NCBI RefSeq assembly: GCF_032191835.1
Contig: NC_083224.1
Span: 93,620,001-93,684,000, forward strand
Direction: 5' to 3'
DNA from: Heteronotia binoei
Lineage: Eukaryota
Length of the DNA: 64,000 bases
The position numbers were made by a program, and so were the translations under genes. The notes under the pieces were generated by a model. The model worked only from the letters and a program-made list of their open reading frames with translations. It did no database searches and was not told the DNA's origin. This document shows, one piece after another, positions 15,901 to 18,900 of the stretch. Every line of letters begins with the position of its first letter. Position 1 is the stretch's first letter.

Positions 15901-18900
15901 TTCCTGGAGTACACAGGCAAGCCATTGAAGCTACTATGACAGAGGTAAGTTCACTTACCCCTTGCCCCTGTTTGCTCTGACTCCAGTGAAATATTGCTCC
16001 TGTATACTCTCTTCTGTTATGCCCAGGGCTGGACCACCCACTAGTCAAACTAGGTGATCACCTAGAGCACCGACAGTCCAGGGGTGAAGAATTGGACTGT
16101 CTCCCCTCCCTGGGGTGCAAAAGCAGGAAAAACAGTCTCTGCCTTTGCAGTGCAACCACAGACAAGGGGTTTAAAATTTAACACCTCTTCTCTAGCGTCA
16201 CACTGCACTGGCAGTCCAATAGGATAGAATGGGCAGATCAGGCTGCCACTGTAGCGCAACACTAGAGAATGAGTTGTGAACTGGCAGAAACTGACCAAGA
16301 GAGAGATCTTGGGGTCGTGGTAGATAACTCACTGAAAATGTCAAGACAGTGTGCGATTGCAATAAAAAAGGCCAATGCCATGCTGGGAATTATTAGGAAG
16401 GGAATTGAAAACAAATCAGCCAGTATCATAATGCCCCTGTATAAATCGATGGTGCGATCTCATTTGGAATACTGTGTGCAATTCTGGTCACCGCACCTCA
16501 AAAAGGGTATTATAGCATTGGAAAAAGTCCAGAGAAGGGCAACTAGAATGATTAAAGGTTTGGAACACTTTCCTTATGAAGAAAGGTTAAAACGCTTGGG
16601 GCTCTTTAGCTTGGAGAAACGTCGACTGCGGGGTGACATGATAGAGGTTTACAAGATTGATGCATGGGATGGAGAAAGTAGAGAAAGAAGTACTTTTCTC
16701 CCTTTCTCACAATACAAGAACTCGTGGGCATTCAATGAAATTGCTGAGCAGTCGAGTTAAAACGGATAAAAGAAAGTACTTCACCCAAAGGGTGATTAAC
16801 ATGTGGAATTCACTGCCACAGGAGGTAGTGGCCAACAAAAATATTGTGCAAGACACACACTCTTGAATAGTTTATACAAAATTAAGTAAATTATATTGTG
16901 TCATATAATGAACAGCCTACAAAAGTAGGCATACATTCATACAATCAGAAATTAAAGCCAAACAAGAGTCTCAAATACAGTGTTTCAGGGAGGACCCCTC
17001 ACAGTCTCTTAATTTTCCAAATAGAATACTAAGACTCAATAATAAAGTTCCACAGGAGTTCCTCCATTGCTTGTTGGCTTCTGAAGGAAAAATTCTTGCC
17101 TTCACGCAAACTCTGGCTTTGATTACGTTCTGCTGCTTCCTCATAGGCCAACTGTAAACAACAGACGTGACGGATACGTGACCGTCTGTTGTTTACAGTT
17201 GGCTTACGAGGAAGCTGCAGGAGCAGCGGAATGCAATCAAAGCCAGAGTTTGCGTGAAGGCAAGAATTTTTCCTTCAGAAGCCAACAAGCAATGGAGGGA
17301 CTCCTGTGGAACTTTATTATTGAGTCTTAGTACTCTATTTGGAAAATTAAGAGACTGTGAGGGGTCCTCCCTGAAACACTGTATTTGAGACTCTTGTTTG
17401 GCTTTAATTTCTGATTGTATGAATGTATGCCTACTTTTGTAGGCTGTTCATTATATGGCACAATATAATTTACTTAATTTTGTATAAACTATTCAAGAGT
17501 GTGTGTCTTGCACAATATTTTTGATATTTTTGTATTCTATGTATTGTGCTGCCATTGTTCTTTTACAGGAGGTGGTGGCGGCTACAAGCATAGCCAGCTT
17601 CAAGAGGGGATTGGATAAAAATATGGAGCCGAGGTCCATCAGTGGTATTGGCCACAGAGTAGTGACACAGTAGTGTTGGACTGGATGGGCCATTGGCCTG
17701 ATCCAACATGGCTTCTCTTATGTTCTTATGAGTTTTAAACTTTAAACCCTTTCTCTGAGCCGCCCTGAGCCGCTTTGGCGGAGAGGGCGGGATACAAATA
17801 AAATGTGATGATGATGATGGGTTTGTGCCGCAGCAGCAGCCTGATCTCTCCATTCTGTGTGTGTGTGTGCATGCACACATTGCACACCTGAAAGTCATGT
17901 CAGCCTCTGGGAACTGACCTCTACTTGGGGTCTGGAGGGAGAGGGGGCTGAATAGTGCCTGCCCTCCCAGTTTTATTATTTCAAGGAGGTCCCCCATGCA
18001 AATACTTGCCGGAGTTGACCCAGCTCAGTTTCCAAGGTCTGACAAGATCAGGCTTCTCTGGGCTATCCAGGTCAGGGAGCAATTTCAAGTTTTGTGCTTT
18101 TCATTTTCCCCATCTGTTTTTGAAAATTGGTTATCAGTGCAGGTGGTGGGGACGTAAGTAGTTAGCCTTGCCTAGGTCCGGCCCTAGTTATGCCCATCTG
18201 TGAATCCTGGAGTGTGGTCTGGCCAAGTACGAATGCAGAAGATTTGACAGAAATTTAAGTCCTGGAGATAAGCCCCATAACAAGGCCTGCATATTCTTCT
18301 CATAACTCTCTGTCTCTTCTGCTTCAGATCCGCTGGCTATTGGATGATGAAATCGTGTCAGCATTGCGCCACTCACGCCCAATCACTGCTGATATCTTGA
18401 GCCGAGTGGCTTCACATGTTTATAGTTCCCAAGGCCGCCCAAGCTGTCATTGCGAAGCTGTCCCCTTGCAGTTTGTATTTGGTCCTGAGAGCTCTCTGGA
18501 AAGGTTTTGCGAGGTAAGAAGTGCTCCATCCTTATGGGTATTCAGGCTTTTTCTGTATGACTGCTGTTCTCTACAGTTCTTAGACATTTAATTTTTGGGT
18601 CATGAACTACAGCTAGACACTTTCAATAGCTTTCTATGCCACCTTTTCTCACTTTTATGCATGCAGAATGTTTATTCATTTATTTTAATAATGCCCATCC
18701 CACTTTCTCTATTAAAGATGATTAAGGTGGCTTGCAGACAGTTAAAACAATTTTAGAAGACTAGCACAAAATAACCACATTTTAAAAGCCAGTTTGGTGT
18801 AGTGGATAAGTGCGTGGACTCTTATCTGGGAGAACCCAGTTTGATTCCCCACTCCTTCACTTACACCTGCTGAGATGGCCTTGGGTCAGCCTTAGCTTTC

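What the first reader, a model, noticed from the sequence alone, without database searches (positions are those of the whole stretch)
16833..17564. Unidentified 732-bp fold-back insertion forming a ~330-bp hairpin, with a 15-bp TSD
Seen: inside a CR1 3' region, arms 16836-17167 and 17183-17523 are about 97% identical inverted repeats (all substitutions are transitions, plus one 9-bp indel). The 15-nt loop overlaps a direct repeat acgtgac..acgtgac. The right arm has 41 extra terminal bases ending in tttt, and a 15-bp TSD flanks the insert. The sequence matches no other repeat in the window, has no poly(A), no hAT/Tc1-type termini and no hammerhead core. The right arm reads like a short ORF tail plus an AU-rich 3' UTR. 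Inference: reverse transcription of an unknown RNA followed by snap-back copying of its own cDNA (Penelope-like inverted repeat or LINE fold-back). Alternatives are a new foldback element family or a captured copy-back viral RNA. Because it lies in an SZT2 intron it would form long dsRNA in the pre-mRNA (ADAR or Dicer substrate) and could extrude a cruciform in DNA.
Basis: partly seen in the sequence, partly recalled or inferred. Interest (0 to 1): 0.7.

Follow-up and report, generated by a model that had tools for sequence, protein, structure and literature searches.

The report
Penelope retrotransposon head-to-head insertion in SZT2
The hairpin is two back-to-back copies of the end piece of a Penelope-type jumping gene, a known layout found at many sites in this genome, likely made when both cut strands of the chromosome each started copying the element's RNA.

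Summary
The hairpin and 15-bp TSD are real, but the arm is not unidentified. It is the pseudo-LTR of a Penelope-like retrotransposon (PLE) with Neptune-type architecture: longer copies lead into RT, CxxCxxC linker and GIY-YIG motifs. Of 79 sampled loci, 42 are head-to-head like this one. The 41 extra bases are the known PLE tail. The loop is more element sequence plus a short templated patch.

Family data favour twin target-primed reverse transcription over cDNA snap-back. In 23 of 23 pairs with both outer ends intact, exactly one arm has the tail. Each arm here holds sequence the other lacks. TSDs peak at 14 bp, with GC just outside 44 of 48 ends, a symmetric CWGC-N16-GCWG target. An 86-nt intron is precisely missing in 39 of 79 loci, 26 of them inverted, and these copies are not one clade (AU p=0.001), which points to a sense RNA template.

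No reads validated this locus; editing was untested. The scan noted twin priming and spliced PLE copies in other genomes before. I found the GC-symmetric target in neither papers nor notes. Verdict: a new member of a known kind.

The parts
16269..16832 (+).
   Evidence: 93% to another window copy at 20260-20825
16813..16816 (+). Left half-site (CTGC) of the family's symmetric target
   Evidence: Sequence; family motif
16818..16832 (+). Left TSD copy
16833..16835 (.). 3 nt (CAA) at the left junction that do not cleanly match the element
16836..17176 (-). Inverted pLTR arm without tail: element positions 341 down to -8 (1 = window 17183); ends at the proximal site cluster
17177..17182 (-). 6-nt patch (CGTGAC); with the next 2 nt it is an antisense re-copy of element positions -5..2, which explains the acgtgac direct repeat
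   Evidence: compared with copy L024
17183..17564 (+). Direct pLTR arm with tail, 5'-truncated inside the pLTR intron
17183..17198 (+). 3' end and AG acceptor of the element's 86-nt GT-AG intron (retained, so this copy is unspliced)
17199..17245 (+). Stem-loop just after the intron, where D. virilis Penelope has its hammerhead; no canonical core here
   Evidence: the likeness is inference
17524..17564 (+). PLE tail, present on one arm only
17565..17579 (+). Right TSD copy
17581..17584 (+). Right half-site (GCTA); GC-to-GC spacer 17 nt in the empty site
   Evidence: Sequence
17565..17730 (+). Host CR1-type LINE 3' end, right part
15945..18327 (+). SZT2 intron holding the insertion (GT at 15945, AG at 18327)
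   Evidence: downstream exon matches SZT2 residues 1698-1757; upstream exon not searched

Best explanation
The 732-bp insert is a single, doubly 5'-truncated insertion of a Penelope-like retrotransposon, with two pLTR copies head to head inside one TSD, likely made by twin target-primed reverse transcription. Shown: family identity, tail on one arm, TSD, GC half-sites at both ends, and the templated patch. Inferred: (1) The element's protein, probably as a dimer, nicked both strands of a CWGC-N16/17-GCWG site in a CR1 copy about 14-15 nt apart. (2) Each 3' end primed cDNA on the element's sense RNA, one from the distal start site (tail included) and one from the proximal site. (3) Both cDNAs stopped in the pLTR intron, at positions 1 and -8, and were joined through a short re-copied patch. 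It is a dead-end copy with no ORF. Any effect on SZT2 is untested and probably nil.
For: Copies share the 3' end and vary at the 5' end; long ones lead into RT and GIY-YIG. RVT_1 E=2e-7, above cutoff. A sister family has pLTR-ORF1-ORF2-pLTR with FVDD, CKGCKAC and VIY..YIG motifs. 42 of 79 loci are head-to-head and none tail-to-tail. 23 of 23 pairs with both arms reaching position 330 have one proximal and one distal end, while the other 56 loci split 27/27/2; 13 of the 23 came from pattern searches blind to the tail. TSD mode is 14 (12 of 28), with GC-N16-GC at 15 of 28 against 0.4 at random. GC lies outside 44 of 48 TSD ends against a random mean of 7.1. Each window arm has sequence the other lacks. 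The arms share five minority alleles that none of 81 other copies carries together. 26 of 39 spliced loci are inverted, and spliced copies are not one clade. In vitro, an anole PLE nicks and extends both strands and starts at two sites that bound the tail (PMC11167929).
Against: 19 of 42 inverted loci were left out of the pairing count because one arm ends internally or runs off the locus, and these could be snap-back or internal priming. A TSD was called at only 28 of 79 loci. Later loss of the palindrome centre could erase the sequence a snap-back needs. Shared alleles could come from gene conversion, and at least two are CpG sites. Only 8 of 23 arm comparisons had no outside copy closer to either arm. 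GIY-YIG is below the Pfam cutoff (E=0.052). The in vitro data are for a Poseidon element that cuts AT-rich DNA. No canonical hammerhead. No locus-specific reads.
Confidence: 0.72

Rival explanations
1. Same PLE, but the second arm arose by cDNA snap-back (self-priming), and the endonuclease then resolved the hairpin at a fixed site, which left the tail on one arm.
For: Head-to-head geometry fits. The arms share five minority alleles. Some loci have inverted arms that start at the head and end internally (L009, L011, L037). Craig 2021 attributes the tail to endonuclease resolution.
Against: The left arm has -8..0 and the right arm has 342-382, so neither contains the other. Lone copies end at the same two sites, 27 and 27. 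Several inverted arms cover only the distal part (L020, L028, L032), as an independently truncated cDNA would. The tail sits on either arm.
Confidence: 0.17
2. Same PLE, copied by self-priming on an antisense transcript, as hypothesised in PMC3846280.
For: It was proposed to explain head-to-head palindromes and intron retention. The window copy keeps the intron end.
Against: 26 inverted loci lack the intron precisely, spread over subfamilies (17 changes on the tree, AU p=0.001). Splicing needs a sense RNA.
Confidence: 0.05
3. Two separate insertions, or a later rearrangement, produced the inverted pair.
For: The same CR1 site was hit at 4 of 79 loci, so it is a repeated target.
Against: One TSD encloses both arms. 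All 42 inverted loci are head-to-head. The arms share rare alleles.
Confidence: 0.03
4. Assembly or chimeric-read artefact, or a captured viral or foldback element unrelated to PLEs.
For: No reads validated this locus.
Against: The arms differ by 8 transitions and a 9-bp indel, the TSD is present, the layout repeats at many loci, and the arm is 94-97% identical to PLE copies.
Confidence: 0.02

Closest known systems
Endonuclease-positive PLE insertions with inverted pLTR and 30-40 bp tail (Pen2a_Av, PMC3846280; fig. 2 legend of PMC8557442; passages seen)
   Same: Inverted 5'-truncated copy next to the direct copy, tail at one end, TSD, intron in the pLTR.
   Different: This copy has no ORF left. 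TSDs here are 13-16 bp against the 8-10 bp quoted for Adineta. About half of the sampled loci have lost the intron.
Neptune clade PLEs (definition as given in PMC8557442, passages)
   Same: C-terminal GIY-YIG, CX2-5CxxC linker, separate upstream ORF in another frame.
   Different: Neptune is described with microsatellite bias; this family targets a symmetric CWGC-N16-GCWG site. No canonical hammerhead core was found. No tree against reference Neptunes was built.
Poseidon of Anolis carolinensis (PAc; PMC11167929, abstract and main text read)
   Same: Two RT start sites bounding the tail, both strands cut and extended, predicted dimer.
   Different: Different clade, AT-rich 5'-ATT-3' cleavage, working hammerhead. 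The text read does not link the two sites to the two arms of inverted insertions.
L1 twin priming (recalled, no call)
   Same: Both target strands prime cDNA and give a 5' inversion inside one TSD.
   Different: In L1 the inverted part is the upstream segment with little overlap. Here both cDNAs start about 35 nt apart and duplicate the same sequence.

Membership tests
EN+ Penelope-like element | RT followed by a C-terminal GIY-YIG endonuclease | tested here: met
   RVT_1 above cutoff. GIY-YIG by motif and a weak Pfam hit, E=0.052. Atlas neighbours at 0.97-0.98 carry RVT_1, HTH_animal and GIY-YIG.
EN+ Penelope-like element | pLTR at both ends of full-length copies, in front of the ORF | tested here: met
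   Sister family, 80% identical to the window arm: pLTR copies at L118 3226-3594 and 6829-7161 around ORF1/ORF2.
EN+ Penelope-like element | Inverted 5'-truncated copy next to the direct copy | tested here: met
   42 of 79 loci
EN+ Penelope-like element | 30-40 bp tail at one end | tested here: met
   Two end clusters about 35 nt apart; 23 of 23 intact pairs; 41 nt in the window copy
EN+ Penelope-like element | Spliceosomal intron in the pLTR/5' UTR | tested here: met
   86-nt GT-AG intron. Joint seen in 3 and 26 RNA reads in 2 of 4 runs, which may come from transcribed intron-less genomic copies.
EN+ Penelope-like element | Hammerhead motif in the pLTR (usual, not universal: Naiad and most Chlamys lack it) | tested here: inconclusive
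   No canonical or U3-A8 core on either strand of three pLTRs and no Rfam hammerhead hit. A stem-loop lies at the expected place after the intron.
Neptune clade | CX2-5CxxC zinc-finger linker between RT and EN | tested here: met
   CKGCKAC at ORF2 residue 548; definition. The Nematis clade shares it.
Neptune clade | RT phylogeny with reference Neptune elements | not tested
   No named reference sequence was fetched.
Neptune clade | Microsatellite insertion bias (a described tendency, not a defining trait) | tested here: not met
   At the 24 sites with 13-16 nt TSDs the target is GC-symmetric; 51 of 79 loci had no TSD called.
Foldback DNA transposon or MITE | Fixed ends and fixed length across copies | tested here: not met
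   Inner ends and arm lengths vary, and 37 of 79 loci have one orientation only.
Captured viral copy-back RNA | Viral origin with no link to a host retroelement | tested here: not met
   The arm is contiguous with a PLE RT/EN ORF in long copies. No viral collection was searched.

The most novel reading that the evidence does not exclude
This family records the PLE integration reaction in the genome. A dimeric RT-endonuclease recognises a palindromic CWGC-N16-GCWG site, makes a 14-nt staggered double nick, and copies one sense-strand, often spliced, RNA twice from two fixed start sites. That would explain the inverted pLTR, the one-sided tail and apparent intron retention together, and would supply a sequence-specific, near-intact Neptune enzyme for in vitro work.
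Probability: 0.55. Interest if true: 0.5.

Novelty: new member of a known kind. Interest (0 to 1): 0.27.

Why it matters
The locus itself is an ordinary dead copy. The family matters a little more. How PLEs form inverted repeats and which strand they copy is stated as open in PMC3846280 and PMC8557442. The strict tail/no-tail pairing, the spliced inverted copies and a defined symmetric target give testable predictions. A very young sister family (copies 99.9% alike, with an open 689-aa RT-EN frame) offers a natural substrate. I did not find the symmetric target or the twin-priming reading in 8 library searches. Repbase, Dfam and subscription papers were not searchable.

Tried and rejected
Rfam: nine sub-threshold hits (miRNA hairpins and one snoRNA), expected for a palindrome, and no hammerhead. 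The arm's short open frames (up to 84 aa) were not pursued once it proved to be pLTR. ORF2 has no PDB sequence match at E<=0.01. Sequencing runs: none holds half of the right-junction stretch, best share 0.23. Laid reads fell on family and CR1 copies in general, with little or no RNA depth in the unique flank, so they neither validate the locus nor test editing. A second intron between pLTR and ORF1, suggested by a T-rich AG before the ATG, gave no joint in RNA reads at low depth. One founder for all spliced copies: rejected, although the label is clustered (17 changes against 24.3 shuffled) and the bootstrap had not settled. Clustering of arm differences near the loop (5 of 8 within 52 nt) is not explained by higher family variability there; it stays unexplained. 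L090 was dropped as a duplicate of L089 (80 to 79 loci). The tree used 72 rows with at least 290 aligned bases, and the 6 unlabelled rows were not counted in the AU test. PMC9977147 and bioRxiv 2026.07.22.740005 (passages) did not bear on the mechanism.

Full report
Observation. The inverted arms, the 9-bp indel, the all-transition differences (8 in 323 bases), the 41 extra bases and the 15-bp TSD (14 of 15) are as described. The duplicated 15-mer occurs once in two intact CR1 copies in the window and the site is present 38,895 times in the genome, so it is a true TSD. The exon at 18328-18513 matches SZT2 (E=4e-12) and the insert lies in the intron 15945-18327. No run with reads from this locus was found. 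An artefact is unlikely because the arms have diverged and the layout recurs at many loci.

Identity. The right arm has 51 matches among 40 scored of 1107 candidates in the genome, the top 40 at 93-100% identity. Copies share the 3' end and vary at the 5' end. Long copies continue upstream into an RT (RVT_1 E=2e-7), a CKGCKAC linker and a GIY-YIG-type motif (Pfam GIY-YIG only E=0.052). A sister family, 80% identical in this segment and about 99.9% identical among its own copies, is full length: inverted copy, pLTR, ORF1, a 689-aa ORF2 in another frame, pLTR. The arm is therefore the pLTR, which lies in front of ORF1. Atlas neighbours of ORF2 are mostly chordate RT/HTH_animal/GIY-YIG proteins. 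This architecture fits Neptune as defined in PMC8557442 (passages); no reference tree was built. That the host is a lizard is my recollection from the repeats, not a call result.

Known layout. PMC8557442 states that an inverted 5'-truncated copy often lies next to the 5' end and that a 30-40 bp tail is often at one end only. PMC3846280 describes the same with TSDs and proposes self-priming on an antisense template, leaving the question open (passages). PMC11167929 shows in vitro that an anole PLE nicks and extends both strands and starts at two sites that bound the tail (abstract and main text).

Family anatomy. I examined 79 distinct loci: 40 from the top BLAST hits, which favour tailed copies, and the rest from two exact-pattern searches. 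42 carry both orientations, all head-to-head. Outer ends fall in two clusters about 35 nt apart. In 23 of 23 loci where both arms reach position 330, one end is proximal and one distal; the other 56 loci split 27 proximal, 27 distal, 2 neither. Thirteen of the 23 came from the pattern searches, a chance of about 1 in 8000 at 50:50. Nineteen inverted loci have an arm ending internally or off the locus and were not counted. TSDs were called at 28 of 79 loci, mode 14. Among the 24 of 13-16 nt, GC lies within 0-2 nt outside 44 of 48 ends (random mean 7.1, maximum 16) and at both ends in 20 of 24. The half-site is GCWG and the spacer is 16 in 13 of 20. The window site fits with spacer 17, and the same CR1 position was hit at 4 of 79 loci.

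The loop. The left arm continues to element position -8 (8 of 9 match to L024). The next 8 nt are an antisense re-copy of positions -5..2 that overlaps the right arm by 2 nt. This explains the acgtgac repeat. The left arm holds -8..0 and the right arm holds 342-382, so neither is a simple copy of the other. The arms share five minority alleles that none of 81 other copies has together, which fits one template or later conversion. The tail is 41 nt here, probably because of a tandem 9-mer whose number varies among copies (inference).

Splicing. An 86-nt GT-AG intron ends 16 nt into the right arm. Exact patterns give 57 spliced junctions and 42 unspliced acceptors genome-wide, controls 0. In the sample 39 loci are spliced, 34 unspliced and 6 unknown; 26 spliced loci are inverted; splice state agrees in 6 of 6 loci where both arms could be scored. 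Spliced copies are interleaved with unspliced ones (17 changes; AU p=0.001 against one clade). RNA reads show the joint in 2 of 4 runs, but may come from intron-less genomic copies, and the runs' species was not matched to the window. Repeated deletion at the CAG microhomology is not formally excluded. The data favour a sense template. The window copy itself is unspliced.

Mechanism. I put twin target-primed reverse transcription at 0.72: a double nick 14-15 nt apart at a symmetric site, two cDNAs from two start sites, joined head to head through a templated patch. Snap-back with endonuclease resolution gets 0.17, antisense self-priming 0.05, separate events 0.03 and artefact 0.02. Family identity alone is about 0.97. 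The nicks, the dimer and the joining are inferred. No canonical hammerhead was found; a stem-loop follows the intron, where D. virilis has its variant ribozyme (PMC4209133, first half read).

Host effect. A hairpin of 339 pairs is predicted on the SZT2 pre-mRNA. Editing, small RNAs and cruciforms were not tested. With 42 such loci in this sample alone, nothing marks this one as functional.

Novelty. New member of a known kind. Earlier notes of this scan report the same layout (36 findings in at least 17 genomes), the twin-priming reading and spliced copies in other genomes. These are unchecked and came after my own tests. The GC-symmetric target was not found in notes or in the paper searches, and it differs from the AT-rich and microsatellite targets described. 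Interest 0.27.

Noticed in passing
L118-L120, L047-L057 (e.g. G000:C5:90281000-90290900): Very young full-length sister PLE family, copies about 99.9% identical, with ORF1 and an open 689-aa RT-EN ORF in another frame; several copies carry kilobase-long inverted 5' arms. Possibly still active.
   Followed up: partly
window 16818/17565; L010:1886, L045:1904-2377, L059:1166-1589: The same position of the CR1 3' region was hit at 4 of 79 sampled loci. The site is common (38,895 copies) and matches the family's target motif.
   Followed up: partly
window 17183-17198: The element's splice acceptor lies in the sense direction of SZT2 and could seed a cryptic exon, though it would sit inside the hairpin stem.
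   Followed up: no
spliced copies, e.g. L010, L012, L017, L020, L031: Intron-less copies begin in a narrow zone about 120-135 nt upstream of the window arm start, a likely transcription start of the pLTR promoter.
   Followed up: partly
window 17204-17234 versus 17125-17146: Five of eight arm differences and the 9-bp deletion lie within 52 nt of the loop, although the family is no more variable there; conversion of the outer arms is one possibility.
   Followed up: partly
window 41360-41497: A second, 140-bp near-palindrome (91%) in the window, with no match to this family.
   Followed up: no
L089 and L090 (G000:C2:3638915 and C2:3970108): Two loci with the same PLE insertion coordinates 331 kb apart: a segmental duplication or an assembly duplicate.
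   Followed up: no
L118:3590-3630: The tail ends in a T-rich tract and AG just before the likely ORF1 start codon, like a second 3' splice site; no such joint was seen at low read depth.
   Followed up: partly
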